In this document: one piece after another, positions 4,444-59,924 of the stretch
How the letters are laid out: each line of letters begins with the position of its first letter
Numbering within the stretch: the first letter of the stretch is position 1
Assembly: GCA_030390025.1 (NCBI GenBank)
Contig: CM059432.1
Location: 51,214,001-51,278,000, forward strand
From: Squalus acanthias
Lineage: Eukaryota
Length of the DNA: 64,000 nucleotides
Direction: 5' to 3'
Notes under the pieces: model-generated
Databases searched by the model: none
The model's input: only the letters and a program-made list of their open reading frames with translations
Told to the model about the DNA's origin: nothing
Program-made: the position numbers and the translations under genes

Positions 4444-5329
4444 GGGGGAAAAATTCAGTATCGCCCCGTTTGGGGCGCAATTATCGGCCGGGCACAAAGA
4501 TTAGCGCCCGGCGCTAATTATAGCCTCCGACTGCAAACTTGACTTTTATCACCCCTGGAGGTGATTGGAGCGCTAAATCAGGCGCTACACATCTGTCTTA
4601 AGGCGCAAAGGCCGAGGAGCGAGGCGTTAACTCAGAGCGCTGGCGAAGCTCATGTGATGTCAGTCAGTAATGGAACACAGACACAATGGCCCTGGCCAGT
4701 TCTTAAAGGGGAGGGTTGATCTTGCTTTCCATCCACATCCTGCTCATTGCAGCCTTGAATCTCGGCCTGGAGAGACCTGTACATCAAATCTGCTGGAAAG
4801 AACAATGGAGAGAACCAGGCAAAGAGCTCAGAGTGCAGCCCCCACAGTCTCTTCTAAATCGATACAAGCAAGGGCAAATCAAAATGAACCTGCAAAGTGC
4901 TGCTCAGTACCCCAAACTCCTTCACACAGCGTTGAATCTCTCCAGAAGTGTCTCTCTCTCTCTCTCTCTCTCTCTCAGAATGCGTGGTTCAAAAATGTCG
5001 CCAACAAAAAAGGCAGGAAGTGGTCGCCTTTAAATAGCGCTCCCCCAGTCCCTTCCTGACTGGAAAACGCTCCCCTCAACCTGTCGTTGCTAGCGGCAGG
5101 CGGTAAGGCAGGGGGCGCCACTCAATATCCGCTCCAGGGCGCACTCAACTGACGTCACGATCTGCCGGCGCAGGAGATCGTGGCAGTACTGTTTAGCGCC
5201 GCTGCAAAATGTCTAGTTAATTTTGCGAGCGGCGCAAACATCGCCGTGCCCGGGCGCTAGTTGCTTTGCGCCCCATTAGCGCCCTCTTAAGGCGCTAACG
5301 GGAGGCGCAACCAACTGAATTTTTCCCCC
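4444..5329 (+). mobile_element. Non-autonomous Harbinger deletion derivative (886 bp)
   Basis: TIR gggggaaaaattcagt/actgaatttttccccc with an ATG TSD. Both arms resemble the ends of 38241-42579. Confidence 0.9.
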
Positions 5330-8520: not shown

Positions 8521-9442
8521 GGCCGGAATTTTGCTGGCACTCAGAGGGCGGGTTTAGAGGCTGGTTCGCTGTCAAAATAGCAAAGATTGACAGCAGGTAG
8601 AAAACCCACTGTCAACCCACCTCCACACGAGTCTCCCAGGTACTGGGTCTGTCAGCGGAGAACTGACCCGACACCAAGCAGCGGGGAGACAATTGAGCTC
8701 ATTAAATGGCTTGTTAAGAGCCAATTTAATGATATTTTGAGGCTTCTTTCCCATTTTAAATGCACTCCCACGGGTTACCCGCTGCTCGGGGAACATGCTA
8801 GCTCACCCTGGTGTGAGTTGAGTCTGCTCTGATGTATCTGATAAGCTGACAGCTGCAGAAGTGGTGTAAAGGATGCTATGTTGCAGATGGTCAGTTTCAG
8901 AGCGCAGAAACTGTTGGTTACTGCATTTGTAAGACTTATAGGGGGAGAAATTCAGTATCGCCCCATTTGGGGCGCAATTATCGGCCGGGCGCAAAGATTA
9001 GCGCCTGGCGCTAATTATCGCCTCCGACTGCAAACTTGAATTTTATCGCCCCTGGAGGTGATTGGAGCGCTAAATCAGGCGCTTCACACCTGTCTTAAGG
9101 CGCAAATGCCGAGGAGCGAGGCGCTACCTCAGAGCGCTGGCGAAGCTCATGTGATGTCAGTCAGCAAGGGAACACACACAAAATGGCGCCGGCCAGTTCT
9201 TAAAGGGGAGGGTTGATCTTGCTTTCCATCCACATCCTGCTCATTGCAGCCTTGAATCTCGGCCTGGAGAGACCTGTACATCAAATCTGCTGGAAAGAAC
9301 AATGGAGAGAACCAGGCAAAGAGCTCAGAGTGCAGCCCCCACAGTCTCTTCTAAATCGATACAAGCAAGGGCAAATCAAAATGAACCTGCAAAGTGCTGC
9401 TCAGTACCCAAAACTCCTTCACACAGCGTTGAATCACTCCAG

Positions 9443-9477
<35 letters not shown>

Positions 9478-11180
9478 AATGCGTGGTTCAAAAATGTCAC
9501 CAACAATAAAAGGCAGGAAGCGGTCGCCTTTAAATAGCGCTCCCCCAGTCCCTTCCTGACTGCAAAACGCTCCCCTCAACCTGTCGTTGCTAGTGGCAGG
9601 CGGTAAGGCAGGGGGCGCCACTCAATATCCACTCCGGGGCGCTACTGGGGCGTTGCGCACTCGACTGATGTCACGATCTGCTGGCGCAGGAGATCGTGGT
9701 GGTAGTGTTTAGTGCTGCCACAAAATGTCTAGTTAATTTCACGAGCGGCGCAAACATCGCCGCGCCCAGGCGCTAGTTGCTTTGCGCCCCATTCGCGCCC
9801 TCTTAAGGCGCTAACGGGAGGCGCAACCAACTGAATTTTTCCCCCATAGAGATTTCTTTAGCTTGCAAGTGTTTAGAGCCAACTGTATGTCCAGTGCCGC
9901 CTCATTGGAACAACCTCTCTCACCATTAACAGATCGCTTCTGTCATCTCACCTGCAGCTGCCATCTAGTCTTTGAAAAAATCAGAACTTGGTCCTCTGAA
10001 TCCTTCCACAATCAGCCCCAACACCAATATCACCAGGCACACCAACATCACCAACAAAATCACCAACCTGCTCTGCAATCACCTGATGTTGCACAGGACA
10101 CAGGGCATCAGCCCCTGACAACATTGCTGCCCGGTAGGTCAGTGATGGCATCACCATGGCCAGATTTACTTCACTTGATGCTGTAAACCCTGGCTGCCAC
10201 ATGATGCGCCAGGTTGACACCATCCCACACCAGCACTGTAAAGCGTCCCTTTAATGTCCAAGCCATTCCATGCACACTCATCGCTATAGCTGGGGGCTGG
10301 GGGGGGGGGGGGGGGGGGGGCGGCAGAGTTAGGTCACAACATTCACTGGAACTCAGTAAGAGACCCCTCAAGGTACGCACAGATCTGTCCAATAAGGGGC
10401 AGTGTTGAAAATATAGATTTCACTGTTTGATAACACATTACCAGAAACTTCACATGGACATTGGCTAAACCTCACAAGTGTCTACCCTTGTGTGTTGTTA
10501 GTTGGTATGCTAGCAGTAGGATGAGGGTGAGTGTGAGGGGTGGCTAATGAGATGGGGAAGTGATAAAGTAGATAGAGAGGGTTGGGTGGAGGTGCAAGGT
10601 AAGTTGGTGTGAGTAAGGATGTGCAGGAGAAGGGTATGGAAGGCAGAGTGATGGGGATGTGTTGAGTGGCACAGCAGGGTGAGTTTGAGTGTGGCTTTGC
10701 AGTAACGTTTCGTGATCCACTGAGATCATTGAAAGGTTGGCGCCACTGCAGCCAGGGACCACTGACGACATCCCTGCTTTTGCCCTCCTGTGCAATGTGT
10801 AACCAGGCTGCGTTGGTGTCCTGGGGAGGTCTATTCCACCCTTGTAAGGGAAGAGAACCTCCCTGCTTGCTGTGACTCCCTCCTAAGCATATGGAGGGAG
10901 TCATTGGAGAGCCTGGGTGCAAGCGTCCACCTCTGTGCAGTGCTTGTCAGTGTTTGCAGCACCTCAACGCTGTCAAACACTGACAGAACAACTGTCAAAC
11001 TCAATGTGGCCATGGTCCCTTTAAGGAAACCGGCTGATGACGCGTCACCAAATGACGTCATCAGACTCGTTTCCTGTTAATTGGCTGGGAAGCCCGCAGG
11101 GCGGGCTTAACAAGGCCAATCAAGGGAAAATCCCTTTGACAGAGTGGCTGCAGCCGGGATCGGGACTGGAACCCGGAAAC
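8521..11180 (-). mobile_element. Non-autonomous Harbinger-family element with Myb/SANT remnant
   Basis: Starts ggccggaatttt. The minus strand reads APRLSNDSL..AAWLHIAQE..WRQPFNDL. It is homologous, inverted, to ~42990-44100. Confidence 0.7.
8941..9845 (+). mobile_element. Non-autonomous Harbinger deletion derivative (905 bp), second copy of the 4444-5329 family
   Basis: TIR gggggagaaattcagt/actgaatttttccccc with an ATA TSD. Colinear and highly similar to 4444-5329. Confidence 0.9.
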
Positions 11181-13936: not shown

Positions 13937-14940
13937 AAGGGAGAAATTCAGTTGGTTAACGCCTCCCGTTAGGGCCTGGCGGGGACGCTAACAGGACGCT
14001 GATGCAGTTGCGCCGGGGCGAGGCGAATTCCGCGCCGCACGTCAAATCCGGCCTCCCTGTAGTGCTGCGCTAACAGTTACCGCCAGGCAGGCAGATCATG
14101 ACGTCAGTGAGCGTCTAACACTCACTAGGCGCCCGATCTGCCAACTTCATTGTCGCCCCCTGCCTTAGCGCCTCGCCCCGACAGCGACAGGGAGAGGAGG
14201 CGTCAAGCAGACGATGCCGGCTCCAGGGTGCTACTTAAAGGGATCATGAGTAATGAGTCGCAGCTGTCAGGTTAGTGCTGTTTCACTGCTTCCTTGTCAG
14301 TTTGAGATCGTGCAACAGTTTAATTCAGTCATTTACAGGTTCTTTAGTTTCAGGAGTGTTGTGGCTACTGAAAATTAGTTACATTTATTCTCATAACATA
14401 TCAAAGTGCTACACTTGGTTACATTGATGGGATTGTACTGGCAGTGGATTGCCCTCCAGGATCTACTGTGGAGGGAGCGGAGGCAGCGAGAAAGACTAGA
14501 ACATGTGGCCAGAGGGAGGAGGAGGGCCATCAGGGCTCTCAACAGGAGGCCATACCCTCTGAGGGTATTCCGACAGCACTTCTCCTACCTTCAATTAAGT
14601 GAGGAGCAGTGGATTAGACGGCTCCGCATCACCAAGGTGCTGGTCACAGAACTCTGCCACCTCCTCCAAACAAACCTCCAACCTCACACCAGGATGACTT
14701 AAACCCCAGATCCCCTTTGCTCACCATATGCCCATCATGCCGTCCATCTGCCATGCCATATCACAGCGTCCTCATGGGCGCAAAGTTGAAATGAGAGAGA
14801 CCACAAAATATTGCAAACTCTATGAATAAATTTATGCATAAACATATCACACATATCATAATCATTCCAACAACTAATGACCCTTGCGCCTGCCATAGTT
14901 GAATAGCTGTCATTGTGTGCAAGGCCTGAGATGTGGGTGT
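13937..14940 (+). mobile_element. Truncated Harbinger element (transposase-side end plus transposase N-terminus)
   Basis: Starts gggagaaattcagttgg, the reverse complement of the 42579 end. ORF 14406-14702 RRPYP.RVFRQHFSYLQLSEEQ..RRLR matches the 40909-42069 N-terminus. Confidence 0.8.
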
Positions 14941-17500: not shown

Positions 17501-17569
17501 AATTTAAATTAAATATTTACCTGTAACTTACCCCCTCTGCTGCTCCTTGTGCTGTGATGTCAATTTGCG

Positions 17570-18360
17570 ATTTTCCTCCCGCTCCATTATGGGCCTCGCC
17601 CTTTCCTCTCGCTCCACTCTCAGCCTCGCCCTTTCCTCCCGCTCCACTCTCAGCCTCGCCCTTTCCTCTCGCTCCACTCTCGGCCTCGCCCTTTCCTCCC
17701 ACTCCACCCTTGGCCTCGCCCTTTCCTCTCGCTCCACTCTCAGCCTCGCCCTTTCCTCTCGCTCCACTCTCGGCCTCGCCCTTTCCTCTCGCTCCACTCT
17801 CGGCCTCGCCCTTTCCTCTCGCTCCACTCTCAGCCTCGCCCTTTCCTTTCGCTCCACTCTCAGCCTCGCCCTTTCCTCTCGCTCCACTCTTGGCCTCGCC
17901 CTTTCCTCTCGCTCCACTCTCAGCCTCGCCCTTTCCTTTCGCTCCACTCTCAGCCTCGCCCTTTCCTCTCGCTCCACTCTTGGCCTCGCCCTTTCCTCTC
18001 GCTCCACTCTCAGCCTCGCCCTTTCCTCTCGCTCCACTCTCGGCCTCGCCCTTTCCTCTCGCTCCACTCTCGGCCTCACCCTTTCCTCTCGCTCCACTCT
18101 CAGCCTCGCCCTTTCCTCTCGCTCCACTCTCGGCCTCGCCCTTTCCTCTCGCTCCACTCTCGGCCTCGCCCTTTCCTCTCGCTCCACTCTCGGCCTCGCC
18201 CTTTCCTTTCGCTCCACTCTCAGCCTCGCCCTTTCCTCTCGCTCCACTCTCGGCCTCGCCCTTTCCTCTCGCTTCACTCTCGGCCTCGCCCTTTCCTCCC
18301 GCTCCACTCTTGGCCTCGCCCTTTTCTCTCACTCTGCTCTCGGCCTTGGCCTTTTCTCAT
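17570..18360. repeat. 30-bp minisatellite, ~26 copies
   Basis: Unit gctccactctc(a/g)gcctcgccctttcctctc, with exact 30-nt periodicity and degenerate edges. Confidence 0.97.
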
Positions 18361-18557
18361 GCTCCAATTTTGTTAGCAAGTCTATTATGTGGTACTTTAT
18401 CAAATACCTTTTGAAAGTTCATATGCACAATATCAACCGTACTACCCACATCAACCCTCTCTGTTACTTCAACAAAGAACTCAATCAAGTTAGTCAAACA
18501 TGATTTGCCTTTAACAAATCCGATCTGACTTTCATTTATTAGCTCATACTTTTCCTA

Positions 18558-21500
18558 GAGGGAGAAATTCGGTACCTTAGCACCTCCAGTTAGCGCCTGG
18601 CAGAGGTGCTAATGGGACGCTGAAGTAGTAGTGCCGTGGCAAGGCGGATCCAGCACCGCACGCCAAATTCAGCACCCCTGTAGTGGCACCGCTACGGATT
18701 AGCACCGGGGACTTCAGCGTCAGGCAGATCATGACGTCAGTGAGCATGCAACGCTCACTGGGTGCCCAATCTGCCAAATTGAGTATCGCCCCCTGCCTTA
18801 GCACATCACCCCAACAGCGACAGTGGGAGGAGGCGTGAAGCAGTTGGTAGCCGGCTCCAGGGGCGCTACTTAAAGGTATTATGAGTAATGAGTCGTAGCT
18901 CTCAGGATAGTGCTGGTTCACTGCTTCCTTGTCAGTTTGACACTGCGCAACAGTTTAAATCAGTCATTTAAAGGTTGTTTAGTCTCCGGAGTGTTGTGGC
19001 TACTAAAAATTTGTTACATTTATTCTCACAACATATCAAAGTGGTACACTTTGTTACATTAATGGGCGCTGTACTGGCAGTCGACCTTGCCCACCAGGAT
19101 CTATGGCGGAGGGAGCGCGGGTAGTGAGAAAGATTGGAACATGTGGCCAGAGGGAGGAGGAGGGCCATCAGGGCTCTCAACAGGAGGCCTTACCCTCCGA
19201 GGGCCTTCCGACAGCAATTGTCCTGCATTCAATTAAGTCAGGAGCAGTGTATTAGAAGGCTTCACCAAGGACGTGGTCACAGAACACTGTCACCTCCTGC
19301 AACCAGACCTCAAGCTTCAGATCAGGATGAAAACCACTCTCTCAGTGGCAGTCAAGGTCACCGTCGCCCTCAATTTCTTCGCCAGTGGATCCTTCCAGTC
19401 TGCAACAGGAGATATCGGTAACATCTCGAAGTTCGCCATCCATCGCTGCATCACAGAGGCTCTCTACAGTCGGAGAAGGGAGTACATTTCCTTTCCCATA
19501 ATGAGAGCCATCCGCCACCGGGAACATCATTGAGCAGACCATCGGGGTGCTCAAGCAACGGTTCCACTGACTTGACCACTCGGGAGGAGCCCTCTAGTAC
19601 TCGCCGGACCATTTCATCGTGGTGTGCTGCATGCTCCACAATTTGGCTATCATGAGGGCTCAGCCTTTACCAGCAGGGATTGCGGGACCACCTCAGGAGG
19701 AAGAAGAGGGAGAGTAGGAGGAGGAGGACAACAAGGAGGATGAGGAAGACGAGGAGGAGGAGGAACAGGAGCGCGGGAGGAGGCAGCCACTCAATCGGCC
19801 TTCCGGAAGTGTGGTCCGTGACCGCCTCATCAGACTGCGGTTCCAATAAATTAAACCCCAGATCCACATTGCTCACCACATCCCCATCATTCCATCCCTG
19901 TCACAGGCCATATCACAGCGCACAGCTGAAATGAGAGACAGTACAAAATTATCCAAAGTGAATTAATACATTTATCAATAATTAGTGAACACACCTTTAC
20001 AGTAACAATATTTACTATTCACCCTTGTGCAATCCCTTAGTGCCTCTCATTACTGTGCCTTTGCCTACTCTAGTGCTACTGAAGGGATAATTACTAGTCC
20101 TAGCCCCTTTAGGGCTACCCCGGATCAGGCGTATTCCCCAGACATTCACTTTCAACTAAAGTTTGAGGTAGCCGAATCCTGAAGATGCTTAATTGGGTCT
20201 AAAGGTCCAGACTATCTCTCCCTAAAGGAAAGGAACAACCTGAAGATGTTACCATCCTCCAGATAGCACTTTTAATAAGTTTAGCTAGACCGTAACGTTC
20301 TGGATATTATGAGGGTCCGGAAAACTCCCTCAGAATTCTGCAACTCCTCACCAAAGAGCGTACAGAGATTGAGTTCGCGAGTTTGATACAGAAGTATTAT
20401 TTGAGACAATTCTAAAAATATATAGATTTATTAAAGAACCGACATGTAATTACAGTTGGTGATTCAATCGCAACATTAACAGTTCCAAAAACAGAAATCT
20501 TACAATTCTATTATCAGAGATCCTTATTCTCAAATCTTAACTTGGTTACATTTTTACAGTTCTTAGTCTATTCCAGGATATCCACCAAAATCAAATACAA
20601 TACCGTTGATCCCCGAGATATAAAGAGTTGTAGACTTACAGAGCTTGCTTCTGAAGCCGAGAATCGCTTTGCCCCTTTACAGCGAGACTATCATCCCATT
20701 TAAAAGTTCAATATTTATATCCTTTCTCAGTGGTATTTCCTTTGAAGTTTTCTGCTGATGTAAGCTAATTATGTCTAGTCATTTTTCTGTTGACCCCTGC
20801 TATTCTTACAGTCAGTTCAGCTGGTTGCATTAAGAATCGTGTCTCTACCTTTAGGTGTTCGAAGCTTATCATAAAAACGATGTGGAGCAGGTGCATCTAT
20901 TTGATGTCATTCTTACCAAAGTCTTCTGTTTGTGTCTTTTTACGACGTGTAAATTAAAACAACCTCAACCAGGGTGATCTCTGCAATTCTTAAGTCACCT
21001 CAGCTGGTTGCAACACAGAATCGTGTCTCCTGTCCGTAGGTGTTCTAAGTTTAACATAAAAACGATTTGACGGCAGGTGTTTCTTTTACTTGATGTCATT
21101 TTTACGAAGGCATATGTTTCTTTTTCTTTTATGTGCCTGTTTACGAAATGTACTTTATAACACCTTAACAGGATGTACCATTGTCTTTTTTCCAAATCTG
21201 CAGACTTCAGGAGCCTCCAACCTCCTGTTTCAATAAGGCTATTGATTCAGTGTCAACAACTTATCTTATCTCAATAGCCTGTATGCTGTTTACAGCTTTT
21301 CCATTGTTAGGGTTTTAGATTTTCAAGCCCAGTTTGTCATGTTACAAAGGCCAGAATTCTTTCAGAGAATGGTGTATTTTTCTGAATATGGCTTATTCCT
21401 TCACAGTCCCAGTGGCTGCAGCAAGGCTGGTGGAAGGCTGCTGAGTGTCTGTGCGGGAGACTTCAGATGGCCTTGCAGGACGCCCTTGACCAGCTCTGGG

Positions 21501-37482: not shown

Positions 37483-38616
37483 GTGTATATATGTAATTAT
37501 GTTGCCCAGCACCAGTAACGTGGCTGCTGGAAGCTTGCTGTAACCAAGCCCTACCAAGGAGTGAGCAAGTGCCTGACTGTGTGGTCTCTGCACGCAAAGA
37601 ATAACTGCTATCTCAGAAGCAACATTGCACCCCATCATTTCCTGCCAGCCAAGTCGCTCCTTCTACTTTGGGAGCATTTCGCCATAGATTATTATGAATT
37701 AGTGCTGGCACAGTCATCAAAGGGAAGCACAGGTATCAAAATAGATAAGGATGGTTTTGTGTAGGCACTGAGATAATTTTTTATAATTTATTTTTACTTT
37801 CCTTTGATGTTTCATTGCTGTTTGAGAAAGGGAAGTTTCTAAGTGGGGGAAACAGTGGGTAACCTAGCAGCTGAGCATGAGAACAAACATATTCTTTGTG
37901 AAGCAGCCACTGGATTGGAACTGCGAGTGAAATGACAGATGTTAAGTTGGTATTCCTTATTGGAAATATTTCTGATTGCCAGTGTTTTGGACCACTCACC
38001 CTGCCTTCACATCATGGGCTTCCATCTCAGCCTTCTCTTCTTCATTACCCTTTTTCTGTAGATCTGCTCCCCTAGTGGCCTCTTCATTTTGCAGCTACAT
38101 GCTCATCCCGCTTTGTATATAATAATTACGCAGTGGATGGTGATAACCTTGGACACTTTGGCTGGGCTGTACAGAAATCTCCTGCTAGAGCAGTTCAGGT
38201 GATAGTCTCACATACTTTGTACTTTAGAGCAGCACTCCAGGGGGTAGAAATTAGGTCGCGCCCCATTTGGGGCGCAAATATCGTCCGCGCGCAAATAATA
38301 ACGCCTGGCGCTAATATTAGCGCCTGGCGCTAATTATCGGCACTGACAGGAAACTTCACTTTTACCGCCCCGGGAGGTGAGTGGAGCGCTAAATTAGGCG
38401 CTGCACACCTCTCTTAAGGCGCAAAGGCCTAGGAGTGAGGCGCTAACTCAGCGCACGAGCGCAGCGCAGCTGCTGCCAGTTAGCGAGGGAACACAGACAC
38501 ACTGGCGCCGGACACTTCTTAAAGCGGGGGGGGCCACTTGCTCCCCAGCCACACCCTGCTCATTGCAGCCTTGAATCTCAGCCTGGAGAGACCTGTAATC
38601 CATTTTGCTGCCAAGC

Positions 38617-40614
38617 ATGGAGAGGGTGAGAGAACGCGCTCATCGCTTCACCGAGCGGGCCTTGGATGCTCTGGTTGACGCAGTGGAGCGCAGACGATGC
38701 ATGCTGTTCCCGGAGAGTGGCAGGAGGCCTTTGCCACGCGAGTTCAGAAGAGTGTGGAGGGAGGTGGCTCAGAGCGTCTCCTCCAGGAGCATGGTGCCCA
38801 GGACCCATGTCCAGTGCCGCAAAAAGTTCAACGACCTCACTCGGGTCGTCAGGGTGAGTGGCTTTTTCTCAATACCTCTCCATCCCTCCATCTCAACCTC
38901 ACTCTATGGCCAGAGGGTCTTAAAACCCCAATGCACAACACTCATGCAACACCTATGGCCCTTTCATCAAACACACACACACATTCCACACTTTGCATAC
39001 AGTAAGGGCTATTCACCTATGGGAGGCACATCAGGCAAGACCATGGCTGCATACAGTAAGGGCTATTCACCTATGGGAGGCACATCAGGCAAGACCATGG
39101 CTGTATATTGACTCAGATGTTGTCCTTTTTCTTGCAGGCTAAGCTGGCTCATAATCGGAGACAGCAGCAACGGACGGGTGGAGGGCGGCTTCAGCTGCAA
39201 CCCCTCAGCGATCTGGAGGAGCGCGTCCACAGGATTGTGGCAAGCCGGGTGATCGGTCCCGTCGCCACTGGAGACGCCGACCCCGTTGTGGACAGCAATG
39301 GTAAGGTCATCACCTTTTTGTCCTCTGTCCTTCCACTTGTCCCTCACAATACCAGCCTTTGACACTTTCAATCCAACTTGCTAACTCGCTGCACTTATTC
39401 CTCCCTTATTGCCACCCTGTCCTCACGCTAAAGCCACTCTTGTACCTCCCTGCTTTCAGATGGTGATTCACCAGCTGAGGAGATGGTCCCTGAAGCTGCC
39501 ACTGGGAGTGATGCTGCAGCTGAGGAGGAAGAGGAAGCCGGAGCATCAGTGCCACCCTCTCCCGAGGAAGCCCATGGCCACACTGGGAACACGCCTTCCC
39601 CGGAGGGGAGCAGGGGGGAAGGGGCTGATGATGGTGAAGTTCCAGGACCCAGCGGGCTGCAGCAACGCCATGGGGGGGGGAGGGAAGAACGGGGGAGCAG
39701 GGGGGAAGGGGCTGATGATGGTGAAGTTCCAGGACCCAGCGGGCTGCAGCAACGCCATGGGGGGGGGAGGGAAGAACGGGGGAGCAGGGGGGAAGGGGCT
39801 GATGATGGTGAAGTTCCAGGACCCAGCGGGCTGCAGCAACGCCATGGGGGGGGGGAGGGAAGAACGGGAGCCTTCTCCCCAGAGGGAGAGTATGCCAGAC
39901 ACTCCTAATGCAATGGACGCAGAGGAGGAGCGGCTGATTGCAGAAATGAACAGCCAGGCGGTGGGCATGCACACTGAGCTCATGGGTGCAGTGGGAAGGG
40001 TGCCCGAATGCATTGAGGCACTGGCAAGGAGTGTGGAGCACTTCGCTGTAGCACAGGCGGATGCCACACTAAAGCTTACTGCTGCAATTCAGTCACTGGC
40101 TGCCAGGAACCCATCTGAGCCTGCTCTCATGCAGACTCAGATTGAGGCCACGCGAGCACTGACTGCTGCCATCCTCGATGGTTCGTGCACATGTCCCCGG
40201 GGCTGTCACCGCGCCGCAGCAGGCCAGCAATCTGTTCTCAGGCAAATTGCTCCGGATGCTGAAGTGCTGCCCCGTGGGAGTGCCAGTGTGTCGGGCGAGC
40301 AGGGAGTTGCTGTCCTCTCTCACGATGACAGCATTCCTGCTGCCAACACTGTCACTTCTCCACTGCACTTGCCACCGCCTGTAGGACAGACTGCTGCCGC
40401 CCATGCAGAGTTGGTGCAGTCTGCAGCCGGGCCCTCCAGGCCCAGAAGTGGTCGAGGCCGTCCTTCAGGGGCATCTGCAGTGTCAGGGTCTGACAAGCAG
40501 CAGCCTTCCACCAGCCTTGCTGCAGCCACTGAGGTCCCATTACGGAGGAGCAGTAGGGTTAGAAGGGGGGAAGTGCGCAAGGGAAGGAGATCACCCTCGA
40601 AGGGCAAAAAGTAG
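38617..40614 (+). CDS. Harbinger Myb/SANT-like (trihelix) DNA-binding protein; exons 38617-38853, 39138-39300, 39460-40614; +1 frameshift at the G run 39846-39855
   Basis: RFTERALDALVDAV..W.EVA..V...R...QCRKKFNDL domain. The GT-AG introns have compatible phases (0, 1). Removing one G gives a 517-aa ORF. Confidence 0.85.
39606..39867 (+). repeat. 87-bp coding tandem repeat x3
   Basis: GSRGEGADDGEVPGPSGLQQRHGGGREER repeated; the units are identical except for G-run length. Confidence 0.95.
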
Positions 40615-40908
40615 GAGGTGTGCCAAAATGCTGGTCATTTTTTTATTAAAGGCCGAGGTTCATGGCCCAACTTTTGTTTAGTGTTTTGGACATTATCTCC
40701 AGGTTGTGAGAACCAGTTATGTTATTGACTGTTTTTTTGTGTTTATTTCTATGAGTTTGTCATGAGGAATTGACACACACAGAGTTTGTACAATAAATAA
40801 GTTTCTGTATTCAAAATATACATGGCTGGTGGTTGGAATTATTGGTGCCTTGGCCGGCTTAGGGGTTGCGTGCTGGGTTGATTCGTGTTTGTAGCACTGG
40901 CAGGGGCC

Positions 40909-42069
40909 CTAGAAGCGGCTTGCTATTAGTCGTTGACGGACGGCCCTTGCAGTTTGACCATTGTGGGCCGCCCTCCTGCCTTGGTGCTGCTGCTGATCAT
41001 CGTCCTCGGCCTGTTCCTCCTCTTCCTCCTCCTCCTCTTGTGGTGCTGCAAGGCCTGGTGGCATTGGCTGCGTCCTGAGGATTGCCATGTTGTGCAACAT
41101 GCAGCACACCACTACGAATTTGGAAACTTGCTCAGGCGAGTACTGCAGGGCTCCTCCGGAATGGTCCAGACAGCGGAATCGTTGTTTGAGCACGCCGATT
41201 GTGCGCTCAATAATGTTCCTCGTTGCTTGTTGGCTTTCCTGGTACCGCAGCTCAGCAGGGGTGTTTGGCGCACGGAGCGGTGTCATCAGCCAGGTGCTCA
41301 ATGCGTACCCCTTGTCCCCCAGAAGCCAACCAACTGGCTGATGCGGTGCCTCGAAAATTTCTGCCACAGTACTCTGGCGCAGGATGAAAGCATCGTGGCA
41401 GCTGCCCGGATAGTGGGCATTGACAGCGAGAATCACCTGTCTGTGGTCACAGACCAACTGCACATTCAAGGAATGGAACCCCTTTCTGTTCCGGAACTCC
41501 TCTGCATTCTCTCGCGGAGCACGCAAAGCCACATGCGTGCAGTCAATGGCGCCCTGCACCATGGGGAAGCCCGCTACCCTCGCAAAGCCCATAGCACGGT
41601 CATGCTGCTTGTCTGGGGTCATAGGGAAGGAGATGAAGTCTCGTCTCCTTGTGAAGAGGGCATTGGTGACCTGCCGGATGCAGCGATGCACCGCAAACTG
41701 GGAGATATTGGCGAGGTCCCCAACAGCAGCTTGGAATGAGCCAGTGGCGTAGAAGTTCAAAGCCACTGTGACCTTCACTGCCACCGACAGAGACGTCCTG
41801 GACCTCAGCTGAGGCTGCAGATCTGGCTGCAGCAGGTGGCAGAGCTCAGTGACCACCTCCTTGCTGAATCGCAGCCTTCGCAAACACAGCTCCTCGGACA
41901 TGTGGATGTAGGAGAGCTGTTCACGATATACCCTGGGAGGGTAAGCTCTCCTGTACATGCGCCTGATGGGCCTCCTCCGTCTGGCCATCATTGCCACTCT
42001 CTGTCTGCGTCTCACTCTCCTCCGATTGAGCTGGAGCAGGACGACGCCCCCAATCATTGCAGCCCCCAT
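40909..42069 (-). CDS. Harbinger (HARBI1-like, DDE_Tnp_4) transposase, 386 aa, intact
   Basis: Uninterrupted ORF with GAIDCTHV, NRKGFHSLNVQ.VCD, PGS.HD, LGDKGY, R..IERTIGVLKQRFRCL and CCMLHN, plus an acidic tail. Confidence 0.95.
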   Translation of the reverse strand: MGAAMIGGVVLLQLNRRRVRRRQRVAMMARRRRPIRRMYRRAYPPRVYREQLSYIHMSEELCLRRLRFSKEVVTELCHLLQPDLQPQLRSRTSLSVAVKVTVALNFYATGSFQAAVGDLANISQFAVHRCIRQVTNALFTRRRDFISFPMTPDKQHDRAMGFARVAGFPMVQGAIDCTHVALRAPRENAEEFRNRKGFHSLNVQLVCDHRQVILAVNAHYPGSCHDAFILRQSTVAEIFEAPHQPVGWLLGDKGYALSTWLMTPLRAPNTPAELRYQESQQATRNIIERTIGVLKQRFRCLDHSGGALQYSPEQVSKFVVVCCMLHNMAILRTQPMPPGLAAPQEEEEEEEEQAEDDDQQQHQGRRAAHNGQTARAVRQRLIASRF

Positions 42070-42920
42070 CTTCTCTTTGCCAGAAAAGTAATGAGGTACA
42101 GCAACGAAAGTAGCAGCAAAGTTAGGATGAACTAGGCCAAACTACCTCACAAAGCGTTGAGTCAATGTAGAAGTCTCTCTCTCTCTCTCCGAATCTCTCT
42201 CTCTCTCTCAGAACGAGTGGTGCATAAATGTCGACCACAGAAAAAGACAGGAAGAGGCCCCCTTTAAATAGCGCCCCCCCCAGCCCCACACCGATTGATA
42301 ACGTTCCAGTCTTCCGGTCGTTGGAAGCGCCAGGCGGTAAGGCAGGGGGCGCCACTCAATTTCCGCTCCGGGGCGCCCCAAGGGCGTTGCACCACGGAAT
42401 GACGTCACAATCTGCGCGCGCAGGTGGTCGCAGCGGTAAGTTTTAGCGCCGCCGCACAATCTCAAGTTAAGTTCTCGAGCGGCGCAAACAGCGCTGCGCC
42501 CGGGCGTTAGCGCCTTAACGCCCCATTAGCGCCCATTTAAGGCGCTAACGGGAGGCGCAACCAACTGAATTTTTACCCCCAGGTGTTCCAAACAATAGAA
42601 CTATTGCTTCAGCAACCCTGTGGTGTTGCTCCACTGTGACTCAAGTGGTGGCATGGGTCTTATAGTACCAATGCTTTGTTGCTGCGTGTGCATTGTGATT
42701 TGGTTTCGGGAGTCAAGCTGCAATGGGTAGCCTTGCTCTCCCAAGACCCATCTAGATATCCTGTTACCATCTTCAAACAACGTGGAAAATGCGAATGGTG
42801 TTCCCTGGATATATTACATTAGCATTATGGATGACAATGTGGTCTGAAACAACCTGCATGTTAAGGGAATGGAAACTTTTCTGGTTCCTGTGGGTATTCA
42901 GCTTATGCTAAACAGCCCTG

Positions 42921-44340
42921 ATAAAAACAGAAAATGCTGGAAATACTCAGCAGGTCAGGCAGCATGTGTGGAGAGAGAAACAGAGTTAACGGCCGTGATT
43001 TCCCCTACCTCGGCGGATCCGGTGCCAGTTTCCTTAAAGGGACCATGTGCAAATTGATTTTGACAGTTGTTCTGTCAGTGTTCTACAGCATTGAGGTGCT
43101 GCCAACACTGACAAGCCCTGCACAATGGTGCACGGCTTCACCCAGGCTCTCCCATGACTCCCTCCATATGCTTATTGAGGGAGTCACAGCATGCAGGGTG
43201 GTCCTCTTCCCTTCCCATGGGCAGAAGAGACCTCCCCAGGAGATCAATGCAGCCTGGTTGCACATTGCACAGGAGGACACAAGCAGAGATGTCATCAGGA
43301 GGACCAGGCTGCAGTGGCGCAAATCTTTCAATGATCTCAGTAGATCACAAAACGTTACTGCAAAGCCACACTCAACCTCATCCTGCTGTGCCACTCATCA
43401 CATCCCCATCACTCTGCCTTCCCTACTCTACTCCTGCACATCGTTACTCACACCAACTTACCTTGCACCTCCACCTATCCCTCTCTAACTACATTATCAC
43501 TTCCCCATCTCACTAGGCACCTCTCACACTCACCCTCATCCTAGTCCAATCATACCAACTAACAACACACAAGGGTAGGCACTTGTGTGTTTTAGCCAAT
43601 GTTCATGTGAAGTTTCTGTTAATGTGCTGTCAAACATTGAAATCTTTATTTTCAGCACTTTGCGTTCTGTCAATGGTGAGAGAGGTTGTTCCAATGAAGT
43701 GACACTGGATACAAAGTTTACTCCAAACACTTGCAACCTGCATAAAGCTCAATCTGTCTTCCAAATGCAGTAAGCAACAGTGAGCTTGGAAAGTGAACAG
43801 CTGTGAGATGGGAGCTTTTATAGCACATTTGCAGCTGTCAAGTAAAGAGATGATTTCATGGTAACACAACTCCCGACCTCCTTACCTGACGTGATCCCTG
43901 AGCAGCGTGGACCCCATTGGCGGCTTCATAAAATTTAAAGCTGAGCTCAAAATACTTTTTATGTGGCTCTTAACAAGTTCATAATGACCTAAATTGCCTC
44001 CCCCGCCACTGCGGGTTGGGTCTGTTCAGTGTTGACAGACCCAACATCTGGGAAAGTTGCGAGGCAGCGGGTTGACAGCGGATTCCCGACCCACTGCTGG
44101 AAGCTTGGGGTGACGCTTGCGGTCTGAAAGGAGGTGTTCCGCAAAGCAGTCACCCAAACTGCGTTTGGTCTCCCCAATGTAGAGGAGACCGCATTGTGAG
44201 CAGTGAATACGGTATAATAAATTGCAAGAAGTACAAATAAATCGCTGTTTCACTGGAAGGAGTGTTTGGGGCACTGGAAGGTGGGAAGGGAGGAAGTAAA
44301 AGGGCAGGTGTTGCATCTCCTGTGCTTGCATGGGAAGGTG
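42921..44340 (-). mobile_element. Penelope-like element fragments (pseudo-LTR plus GIY-YIG endonuclease) split by a Harbinger derivative (~42990-44100)
   Basis: FICTSCNLLYRIHCSQCGLLYIGETKRSLGDCFAEHL is a PLE GIY-YIG motif. The inner segment carries AAWLHIAQE..QWRKSFNDL (Myb/SANT). Confidence 0.8.
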
Positions 44341-57777: not shown

Positions 57778-59924
57778 GGGGGTGAAATTCGATAAAGCCC
57801 GAAAATGGGCGTTGGCCCATTCAGAAAGCGCAGGCAGCATATCAATTTGGTGCTGCCTGCAACTTTACATGATAGGAGCACACAGCCTAGCGACTTTCGT
57901 GCTGCTGACAGGCTGTGTGCTCAGCAGGGGGCCCAAGGTAGCGTCACTGGAGCGAGGCTGCCTTTCCTTAAAATTGCCTTTTCTTTTTCAAGGCAGTCTC
58001 TAGCCCTTAAAGGGGAACTGCCTTCTGAAAATAAAATCATTCTGAACTAGGCAGTCTGCAACTCTGACAGCTGAATTGCCTTCTGCAAAAAAAATTAGAA
58101 ATCCTTCAGAACTAGGCAGTCTGCAGCTCATAAAGCTGAACTGCCTTCTCCACATAAAAATTGCTAAAAGTGCTTCAGCACTAACATAAATGGCTCAACA
58201 GGCCAGGGAAAGGTCTCAGATGCAGCACTCGAGCTTTGTGCAGGAGAGTCAATATTAGAAGAAAGGTCCTCTACTTACAGGGGGCCAGGAGGCCCTCCAG
58301 AAAGAAGGATGTGGGACCTGATCACTGAGACCGTCACGGCCAGCAGTGTTGCCCCCAGGACTTGGCTCCAGTACCCAAAGAAGTTTCATGAACTCAGACC
58401 ACTGGTCAAGGTCAGTGAATGCATCTTCAAAAGCTGTCTCCTACCAACTGCACAACTAGCCTCACACACTGCTCAATGCACGATGCCCCCATCACTCCAC
58501 TCACCTACCAACAATCTCTACCAACCAGGAGGCACACCTCACATTCCTAGCTTCACCTCACCACCTTGAAGGAGATGGTGCAGGCTATTTTTGGCAGGGG
58601 CATGGTTGAGCCCTTGGCCAGAGGCAGGGCTGAAAGGATACAAGATACTGGTATCCTCATACGTTATCCTCCTTCTCACATCCCACTTCCCCCTCATCCC
58701 ACAATCTCTTCTGATTTACAAGCTGCACATGATGTAAGCATGCACATCTTGCTTCCCCCAGCCCCCCCTCACCACACCCTACTTGTGCCTTCCTCATTTC
58801 AGACCCAAGAAATCCATCCTGCCCAGCCAGTGGTTCACCAAGAAGAGGGAGAGGAGAGTGAAGAAGAAGAAGAAGAAACACTGTCACTTGATTTCACACT
58901 CGCAGCCACCAGCTCCTTGAGATCATCCTGCAAGGTCATTTGCAGTGCCCCCCACTGAAAGTCAGCCATGCTTCCACCAGCCATGCTGCAGCCACTGGGG
59001 TAGCACTGTGTGACAGCACTAGGATAGGCAAAGGCAGATGCAAGACAATCACTAAGGGAATGCACAAGGATGATTAGTTGATTTTTTGATGTAATATTGG
59101 ATGCATATATGGGTAAAGTTGGATTGGAAAGTTTGCTTTGTGGTGGCTTTTAGTTCCGCATTGTGGCCAAGAGGACGCTGTGATGGTCAGGAATAAAGGG
59201 AAGATAACATGTGGGACAAATGTTGAAAGGGGAATTGGGGTTGTGTTGCCGCAGGCAGATGATTTGATTCCAGGTATCCTGGCCAGAAAGGGGCTGTCTG
59301 GGATGCCTCCTTCCTCCTCTTCTGCTTCTTCCCTCTGCGAGCAGCTTGTTCCCTTTGCTGCCTCTGCTTCATCTCAATGTGATGTCGCAGCCCAAGGGGG
59401 ACTGCAACTAGAGCCCCCAGGACGGTGAGCAAGTGGTCTTCTCAGAGGCCTTCCTTTAACATCCAAAGCCTTGCAAGTGTCCTGCAGCACTCTCTACACA
59501 CTTTAACAACTTTTTAAATGTATTGCACCAAGCCACTACTCTGATAAAATGTAAATAAAACAGTCCAAAAGCTAAAATCTAAACTTACCTGAAAGATGTG
59601 TGTGTCCGTTTAAGAAGCACTGGCAGTGTCTCTGAAGTACTGTTGCAGGCGCGTTCTTCCGTGCGTGGTTTGAAGAGGGCGGTATCCAGAGTGGCGACAT
59701 CCAAAATCACAGTCGTGCGTCAATTGAAGCGTTGCACACCAATTGACATCACGATCTGCATAATTTACATGTGGGCAGCGAGTGCAGGCAACAGCAGCGC
59801 TACCGACCTCCTCAAAATGGCAGCCGCCGTGTTCCGCATTGGCAGCAGGTGGAAGTGAGGCAGCTGCCATTTTTCAGCAAAACCAACCTTAACAGCTGGC
59901 GCAAGACCTCCGAATTTTGCGGCC
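57778..59924. mobile_element. Internally deleted Harbinger element
   Basis: Termini gggggtgaaattcg/cgaattttgcggcc. Myb remnant WDLITETV..PRTW.Q..KKFHEL (+) and an acidic transposase tail (-). Confidence 0.7.

What the first reader, a model, noticed from the sequence alone, without database searches (positions are those of the whole stretch)
38241..42579. Near-intact two-component Harbinger transposon, a candidate active vertebrate DNA transposon
Seen: TIRs, a CAG TSD, an uninterrupted 386-aa transposase with candidate catalytic D (GAID), D (LGD) and E (IER), a spliceable Myb/SANT gene, and abundant undecayed CpG. Established: Harbinger transposition needs both proteins, and intact autonomous vertebrate copies are uncommon. 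Inference: a recent insertion from a possibly still-active family that could drive local MITEs and be tested as a gene-transfer tool.
Basis: partly seen in the sequence, partly recalled or inferred. Interest (0 to 1): 0.8.

Follow-up and report, generated by a model that had tools for sequence, protein, structure and literature searches.

The report
Fast-evolving, recently mobile shark Harbinger transposon
This is one complete copy of a two-gene cut-and-paste transposon with about 1,300 near-identical and roughly 14,700 total relatives in what is likely a shark or ray genome; two other DNA samples show the site empty, and the family's surviving lineage has changed about ten times faster than the copies it left behind, likely through error-prone copying, although movement today is untested.

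Summary
Confirmed: a 4,339-bp PIF/Harbinger element (12-bp TIRs, CAG duplication, open 386-aa DDE transposase, three-exon Myb/SANT gene). This copy's Myb gene is frameshifted by one extra G (282 aa instead of 517), so it likely needs help in trans; 23 of 40 close copies have both frames open. The genome holds 1,299 exact matches to a youngest-clade marker, 14,737 to a catalytic motif and 13,894 to an 893-bp MITE. Two independent DNA runs contain the empty site with one CAG; intron 2 is spliced in 3 of 4 putative RNA runs. The target is a 15-bp palindrome like zebrafish Harbinger3_DR's, but with A/T-rich duplications. Unexpected: copies form one nested, L1-like ladder. About 200-240 substitutions accumulated on the trunk (transposase dN/dS 0.25, transversion-rich) while copies branching there gained 16-38. 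MITE ends match successive autonomous stages. Likely cause: many rounds of error-prone gap repair with template switching. Present-day activity is not shown: at a published shark mutation rate, 0.1% divergence is over a million generations. Known kind of element, unusual evolutionary mode.

The parts
38238..38240 (.). left target-site duplication CAG
   Evidence: empty-site contigs carry one CAG
38241..38252 (+). left terminal inverted repeat, 12 bp
   Evidence: same boundary in 37 of 39 other copies
38253..38540 (.). left subterminal region rich in GCGCC-type motifs (likely Myb-protein binding sites, inferred); includes a 19-bp duplication (38289-38326) absent from all 37 other full-length young copies
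   Evidence: 26 motif hits in the outer 630 bp against 3 in 3,709 bp of interior
38617..38853 (+). Myb/SANT gene exon 1 (DNA-binding domain)
   Evidence: PF13873 E 1.3e-9
38854..39137 (+). intron 1, GT..AG, with two 54-bp repeats (1-7 units in other copies)
   Evidence: splicing not seen in the RNA runs laid
39138..39300 (+). Myb gene exon 2
39301..39459 (+). intron 2, GT..AG, 159 bp
   Evidence: spliced joint in 3 of 4 putative RNA runs
39460..40614 (+). Myb gene exon 3 with three 87-bp repeats (1-4 units in other copies); extra G in the run 39846-39855 ends the frame at 39906-39908
40615..40908 (.). region between the convergent stop codons, with AATAAA on + (40792-40797) and on - (40642-40647, 40742-40747); likely overlapping 3' UTRs
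   Evidence: sequence; function inferred
40909..42069 (-). intronless DDE transposase, 386 aa; D176, D226, D252, E288
   Evidence: model pLDDT 85.5
42250..42567 (.). right subterminal region with GCGCC-type motifs; youngest-clade changes at 42513 and 42535-42536 lie in or beside a perfect 14-bp inverted repeat
42568..42579 (-). right terminal inverted repeat, 12 bp
42580..42582 (.). right target-site duplication CAG

Best explanation
The element is a full-length PIF/Harbinger transposon from the youngest wave of a large family in a likely shark or ray genome, inserted here after this haplotype split from those of two other samples, and it likely moves by two-component cut-and-paste with help from other copies' Myb protein. 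Shown: anatomy, copy numbers, empty allele, family-level splicing of intron 2, a 15-bp palindromic target (consensus AGACAC-WWW-GTGTCT), a single nested lineage whose trunk changed about ten times more than the copies it left behind, and MITE ends that match successive autonomous stages. From established Harbinger biology: the Myb protein binds the ends and brings the transposase into the nucleus; the transposase cuts at the TIRs and inserts with a 3-bp duplication. Inferred: copy number rises when the donor gap is refilled from a sister or homologous copy; that repair synthesis is error-prone and switches template, which would give the fast transversion-rich trunk, the variable 54-bp, 87-bp and G-run lengths, recombinant copies and MITE end capture. 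Also inferred: purifying selection on the trunk means copies encoding working proteins were favoured, an effective cis advantage such as only a few unsilenced copies being both expressed and cut. Odds by part: Harbinger member 0.98; insertion younger than the haplotype split 0.9; ladder with fast trunk real 0.85; gap-repair mutagenesis its main cause 0.5; family moving in living animals 0.55.
For: 24 other loci with an identical 1,161-bp transposase frame; 23 of 40 close copies with both frames open; counts 1,299 / 14,737 / 13,894, controls 0. Empty site: one 960-nt contig in X1 and one 1,188-nt contig in X2 join 38236 to 42579; flank single-copy. GT..AG joint at intron 2 in X17, X18, X20; none of 62 aligned genomic copies lacks that intron. 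Ladder: 197 differences between old-stage and young majorities over 3,811 sites while old-stage copies lie 19-45 from their own majority; old alleles 80-100% nested; not blockier than shuffles in 9 of 11 intermediates; outgroups carry the old allele at 152 of 197 sites. Trunk 239 substitutions, transposase dN/dS 0.25, Myb exons 1-2 0.32; older terminal branches 0.70 and 0.54; CpG transitions 8% against 30%, C>G 21% against 10%, Fisher p 2e-5. MITE outer ends 0-3 mismatches from the matching autonomous stage while the inner left part stays about 20% diverged.
Against: No de novo insertion or excision was observed. At 7e-10 per base per generation (another shark, PMC10587355) the 0.10-0.12% private divergence of young copies is about 1.5 million generations. 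RNA contigs carry the family's older majority alleles, the runs are only guessed to be RNA, intron 1 splicing was not seen, and contigs give no strand or level. Trunk change is uneven: introns 1-2% and the last third of exon 3 under 1%, against 19.5% at synonymous transposase sites, which uniform mutagenic copying does not predict. The MITE's own interior shows only 6-7 trunk changes against about 2 per copy, a weaker effect on small numbers. Exon 3 has dN/dS 2.9 on the trunk (p 0.04, uncorrected). The ladder rests on 21 older copies from the first 21 Mb of one chromosome, picked by an exact 24-mer.
Confidence: 0.7

Rival explanations
1. The family is no longer moving: the last wave ended long ago, and near-identity and the empty allele persist because sharks mutate slowly and have large populations, or because organism A is a sister species.
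For: Mutation rate 7e-10 per generation, CI 1.4-14.1e-10 (PMC10587355); young copies average 0.10-0.12% private change; the empty haplotype differs from the window flank at 3 of 703 sites; 17 of 40 close copies have a broken Myb frame.
Against: 2 of 37 young copies have no terminal change over 3,812 sites and 11 of 30 none over about 1.45 kb; 23 of 40 keep both frames; the lineage produced copies at every step of the ladder without a visible gap; if copying itself adds mutations, private counts overstate age.
Confidence: 0.4
2. The fast trunk reflects positive selection on new variants, to escape piRNA or methylation silencing or to escape the parasitic MITE, rather than a raised mutation rate.
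For: Uneven change along the element and exon 3 dN/dS 2.9; the youngest right-subterminal variant occurs in 925 places, and 0 of the first 30 are the MITE; MITE ends follow the autonomous ends.
Against: 53 synonymous changes in the transposase and 84 non-coding changes on the trunk would nearly all need to be selected; the mutation spectrum itself differs from that of inserted copies, even without CpG sites (p 0.005).
Confidence: 0.25
3. The element lives in a faster-evolving reservoir (parasite, virus or other fish) and re-invaded the shark germline repeatedly, each wave leaving a rung.
For: Purifying selection on a transposase is the usual sign of passage between hosts (established theory, recalled); runs labelled as organisms B to F hold 41-79% of the element's words; X9 and X12 cover the element but not the unique flank.
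Against: X9 and X12 contigs carry the same mixture of older alleles as the host runs, at depth 12-60 over most of the interior, as expected from trace host DNA or a related species; at least a dozen separate invasions would be needed; relatives down to 70-74% identity sit in the same genome; the 64 best protein relatives are all from sharks and rays, the best outside them 45-48% identical.
Confidence: 0.1
4. The locus is a domesticated HARBI1/NAIF1-like gene pair.
For: Databases name nearly all relatives 'putative nuclease HARBI1'.
Against: TIRs, TSD, over a thousand dispersed near-identical copies, an empty allele and neutral change after insertion.
Confidence: 0.01

Closest known systems
Harbinger3_DR of zebrafish (reconstructed element; primary paper not held, seen through passages of PMC3016246, PMC9179366, PMC9392472)
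   Same: Two genes (DDE transposase and Myb-like), 3-bp duplication, 15-bp palindromic target: AAACACCWGGTCTTT fits the shark preference at 13 of 15 positions.
   Different: The duplicated core here is mostly A/T-only (ATA/TAT, TAA/TTA, AAA/TTT: 57 of 83) rather than CWG; natural copies have both frames open, so no reconstruction is needed; TIR is 12 bp against the 25-50 bp given as usual in PMC9179366. Sequence identity to Harbinger3_DR was not tested.
Harbinger elements of teleosts and coelacanth (PMC9179366, passages and Introduction read)
   Same: Same two-gene plan; transcribed.
   Different: They cover 0.002-0.14% of teleost genomes; here 14,737 motif matches, most sampled ones near full length, imply very roughly 1-1.5% plus 0.3% for the MITE (my extrapolation). 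That paper found none in elephant shark and asked for other cartilaginous fish to be checked.
Mammalian L1 single-lineage succession (recalled, not from a call)
   Same: One lineage gives nested subfamilies; trunk under purifying selection and faster than the host clock.
   Different: L1 is a retrotransposon with cis preference and reverse-transcriptase errors; this is a TIR DNA transposon whose proteins also act in trans, as the MITE shows.
Long-lived Xenopus Kolobok / T2-MITE families (PMC6004289, passages read)
   Same: A vertebrate DNA transposon and its MITEs persist despite expected vertical inactivation, with purifying selection on the transposase.
   Different: That paper invokes domesticated source genes; here the source is a moving lineage of dispersed copies.
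Co-evolving autonomous and non-autonomous retroelements (wheat, PMC9744471, passages; pararetroviruses, PMC5491270, search listing only)
   Same: Non-autonomous partners keep pace with autonomous ones.
   Different: Those replicate through reverse transcription; here the partner is an 893-bp MITE of a cut-and-paste element.

Membership tests
PIF/Harbinger superfamily | DDE transposase of the DDE_Tnp_4 type with intact acidic triad | tested here: met
   PF13359 E 5e-38; D176, D252, E288 and D226 present; model has the expected strand-helix core; PDB fold hits are weak (E 0.004 and above), the best four transposases
PIF/Harbinger superfamily | second gene with a Myb/SANT domain | tested here: met
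   PF13873 E 1e-9; open spliced frame in 23 of 40 copies, truncated in this one
PIF/Harbinger superfamily | terminal inverted repeats | tested here: met
   12 bp, 11 matching; shorter than the 25-50 bp quoted in PMC9179366
PIF/Harbinger superfamily | 3-bp target-site duplication | tested here: met
   34 of 37 copies; one CAG in the empty allele
PIF/Harbinger superfamily | both proteins needed for transposition; Myb protein binds ends and transposase | not testable with these tools
   known for Harbinger3_DR and mPing (PMC9179366)
Harbinger3_DR-type target selection | 15-bp palindrome around the duplication | tested here: met
   83 sites, about 9 bits; sites are not all independent, 17 fall in two recurring repeats
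Harbinger3_DR-type target selection | CWG duplication | tested here: not met
   CAG/CTG at 1 of 83 other sites; centre A or T at 82 of 83
Currently active transposon family | presence/absence difference between samples | tested here: met
   empty site in X1 and X2; one locus only; same species not proven
Currently active transposon family | transcripts of both genes | tested here: inconclusive
   intron 2 spliced in 3 of 4 putative RNA runs; contigs carry older alleles; transposase gene has no intron to test
Currently active transposon family | de novo insertion or excision | not testable with these tools
   needs trios, gametes or a cell assay
Domesticated HARBI1/NAIF1-type genes | single copy, fixed, no TIR or TSD | tested here: not met
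Named Dfam/Repbase family | match to a library consensus | not testable with these tools

The most novel reading that the evidence does not exclude
A vertebrate cut-and-paste transposon that is still active and has escaped vertical inactivation without horizontal transfer by evolving like L1: one master lineage under purifying selection, mutating 10-30 times faster than its host through its own copying, while a 14,000-copy MITE repeatedly captures its newest ends by recombination. Hundreds of natural two-gene-intact copies with a 15-bp target would also give a ready site-selective vector.
Probability: 0.3. Interest if true: 0.8.

Novelty: new variant of a known kind. Interest (0 to 1): 0.55.

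Why it matters
DNA transposons are expected to die out within a host because their transposase acts in trans and is not conserved by selection (vertical inactivation, PMC6004289 passages). This family shows a continuous, selected, fast-evolving lineage and a MITE that tracks it, preserved rung by rung because the host mutates slowly. That makes the question of how such elements persist, and how mutagenic their copying is, directly measurable. It also answers a published open point, whether Harbingers exist in cartilaginous fish other than elephant shark, and offers natural rather than reconstructed vertebrate Harbinger proteins for a transposition assay. The element's anatomy itself is ordinary.

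Tried and rejected
Circular excision intermediate: the right-to-left end joint with one base between in X1 is matched by a genomic head-to-tail MITE pair; 2 such junctions exist in the assembly. Paralogous origin of the empty-site contigs: the flank has one close match in the assembly, others at most 76%. Ladder as block mosaics of two parents: rejected for 9 of 11 intermediates by a runs test; L119 is a clear recombinant, L084 borderline. No listed holder is on record as RNA; intron 1 joint not seen; the intron 2 joint is absent from the 15 of 59 joints shown for the DNA runs, a partial control. No solved structure of a relative by sequence (1 unrelated hit at E 0.013) or fold (none at E 0.001 or below). 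The exon 3 C-terminal part matches no Pfam family. No complex prediction was run. The primary Harbinger3_DR and coelacanth papers are not held. Ten literature searches listed no paper on a shark Harbinger burst, a ladder-like DNA transposon lineage or MITE end capture; most subscription papers and all repeat libraries are outside these searches, and no supplements were read.
Full report
Observation. The element spans 38241-42579 (4,339 bp). Its 12-bp ends match at 11 positions and are flanked by CAG on both sides. The minus strand carries an open 386-aa frame matching DDE_Tnp_4 (E 5e-38); the plus strand carries a Myb/SANT exon (E 1e-9). Two GT..AG introns give a three-exon gene. In this copy a run of 10 G at 39846-39855, where open-frame copies have 9, ends the frame after 282 aa instead of 517. 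CpG is moderately raised (0.56 against 0.42 for the window), mainly in the ends.

Host. The 64 best protein relatives are all from sharks and rays (best 65% identity); the best from other fish are 45-48% identical. The genome is 3.71 Gb. I infer a cartilaginous fish.

Family size and state. A DNA search scored 40 of 1,563 candidates: 24 other loci have an identical transposase frame and 15 differ by about one base. Of these 39, 37 had both ends found and 34 a perfect duplication of their own site; they differ from this copy by 6-21 substitutions and by the number of 54-bp intron repeats (1-7) and 87-bp exon repeats (1-4). Both frames are open in 23 of 40; most of the 17 breaks are length changes in the G runs. 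This set was chosen for transposase identity, so it overstates intactness. Whole-genome pattern counts, each with a control of 0: 1,299 for a youngest-clade marker, 925 for its right subterminal variant, 8,592 for the 30-nt left end, 14,737 for a 24-nt catalytic motif with up to one mismatch, 13,894 for an 893-bp non-autonomous element. In a position-ordered sample of 42 motif hits, 7 were at least 99% identical to this transposase, 11 were 94.5-99%, 12 were 90-94.5%, 8 were 77-90% and 4 lower; 20 of 42 passed a strict open-frame test that may miss diverged copies with shifted starts.

Recent insertion. In two DNA runs from different studies (X1, X2; organism A) a single contig joins the left flank directly to the right flank with one CAG. 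The flank is single-copy in the assembly and differs from those contigs at 3 of 703 sites. The insertion is therefore younger than the split of these haplotypes. Contigs drop rare variants, only one locus was tested, and organism A could be a sister species.

Expression. The intron 2 joint, GT..AG, stands in 3 of 4 runs guessed to be RNA, from two studies. It is not among the 15 of 59 joints shown for the DNA runs, and none of 62 aligned genomic copies lacks the intron. The long contigs carry alleles of older stages, so this shows the family is transcribed, not this copy.

Target. From 83 other sites (50 autonomous, 33 MITE) the preference is a 15-bp palindrome, consensus AGACAC-WWW-GTGTCT, about 9 bits, with A or T at the centre in 82. 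The zebrafish Harbinger3_DR target AAACACCWGGTCTTT (PMC3016246, passages) fits at 13 of 15 positions; the difference is the duplicated core. Earlier scan notes on this genome report the same kind of preference; they are not independent support.

The ladder. Trees of the transposase (48 distinct rows) and of 62 full-length copies over 3,812 columns with tandem repeats masked (three young copies with an end not found or N, and partial or very old sample copies, were left out) show one lineage with copies branching off step by step; most trunk nodes have bootstrap 85-100, two of them 40 and 31. Without a tree: the old-stage and young majorities differ at 197 of 3,811 sites, old-stage copies lie 19-45 from their own majority and young copies 1-14 from theirs; outgroups carry the old allele at 152 of the 197; old alleles in intermediates are 80-100% nested and in 9 of 11 no blockier than shuffles. 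By parsimony the trunk has 239 substitutions while copies branching at its old end carry 16-38 (slope 0.09). Trunk dN/dS is 0.25 in the transposase (53 synonymous, 43 not) and 0.32 in Myb exons 1-2; older terminal branches give 0.70 and 0.54, not different from neutral, as does an unselected young sample for the transposase (0.61). The trunk has fewer CpG transitions (8% against 30%) and more C>G changes (21% against 10%, p 2e-5). Against a simple story: change is uneven (introns 1-2%, last third of exon 3 under 1%), exon 3 has dN/dS 2.9 (p 0.04), at least one copy is recombinant, and the older rungs come from 21 Mb of one chromosome.

The MITE. Forty distinct MITE loci (31 with a perfect duplication) also form a series. 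Their outer 150 bp on the left and outer 300 bp on the right closely match one autonomous stage after another (0-3 mismatches per segment at the best stage for the younger MITE groups), while the inner left 220 bp stays about 20% diverged. Independent parallel mutation is implausible, so I infer repeated capture of ends by recombination. The latest sampled MITEs match the stage just before the youngest autonomous clade, and 0 of 30 loci with the youngest right-end variant are the MITE. The MITE's own interior shows 6-7 trunk changes against about 2 per copy, which only weakly supports a general copying-linked mutagenesis.

Mechanism. Established for Harbingers (PMC9179366 Introduction; PMC9392472 passages): both proteins are needed, the Myb protein binds the ends and imports the transposase. 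Inferred here: GCGCC-type motifs, 26 in the outer 630 bp against 3 in 3,709 bp inside, are its binding sites; this copy likely supplies transposase and intact ends but a truncated Myb protein; copy number grows by gap repair, whose errors and template switches would explain the trunk rate, repeat-number changes, recombinants and end capture; selection on the trunk implies an effective cis advantage. None of the inferred steps was tested.

Age. At 7e-10 per base per generation (epaulette shark, CI 1.4-14.1e-10; PMC10587355 abstract and passages), 0.10-0.12% private change is about 1.5 million generations, and even an unchanged copy could be up to a million generations old. The rate is from another species, and copying errors would inflate the count. 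'Recent' is thus relative; activity today is open.

Comparison and verdict. It is a member of PIF/Harbinger by every feature I could test. It works like Harbinger3_DR but differs in its duplicated core, short TIR, abundance and natural intactness. Its evolutionary mode resembles L1 succession (recalled) more than the burst-and-decay expected of DNA transposons (PMC6004289 passages). PMC9179366 found no Harbinger in elephant shark and asked for other cartilaginous fish to be checked. An active but partitioned Harbinger family is described in a nematode (PMC13668399, abstract). Ten searches of the held library listed no report of this family, the ladder or MITE end capture, but repeat libraries and most subscription papers were not searchable. 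Novelty: new variant of a known kind; interest 0.55.

Noticed in passing
window 4444-5329 and 8941-9845: Two older copies of the 893-bp MITE lineage, 85-86% identical to the current MITE.
   Followed up: partly
window 23210-22980, 3865-3630, 43144-43344, 58303-58410; 19261-19843, 14574-14693, 44674-44387, 42928-42565: Decayed Myb-like and transposase fragments of other Harbinger families; the window is dense in them.
   Followed up: no
L013, L018, L021, L043, L063, L069, L076: Independent autonomous and MITE insertions, in both orientations, at the same base at the start of a LINE endonuclease frame (PF03372 E 1e-6); 6 of 83 sites share this 11-mer and 11 of 83 share an octamer-repeat site.
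   Followed up: partly
L052:1500-1530, L053:619-2410: Head-to-tail junctions: a MITE and an autonomous copy sharing one TTT, and two MITEs separated by a single base with non-matching outer triplets.
   Followed up: partly
window 42505-42550: Youngest-clade changes add a perfect TAGCGCC motif and complete a 14-bp inverted repeat; could be a quasi-palindrome template switch.
   Followed up: no
alignment A1: 16 of 29 database proteins named 'putative nuclease HARBI1' lack the catalytic E288 (K, R, Q, G or D instead); many are likely decayed transposon copies rather than the host gene.
   Followed up: no
window 17508-18414: A short-period tandem array open in five frames.
   Followed up: no
runs X6-X16: Runs labelled as organisms B to F, or unlabelled, hold 51-79% of the element's words; the two laid carry the host-like allele mixture without the unique flank.
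   Followed up: partly
window 42921-42991: A very abundant short repeat with high depth in all four putative RNA runs.
   Followed up: no
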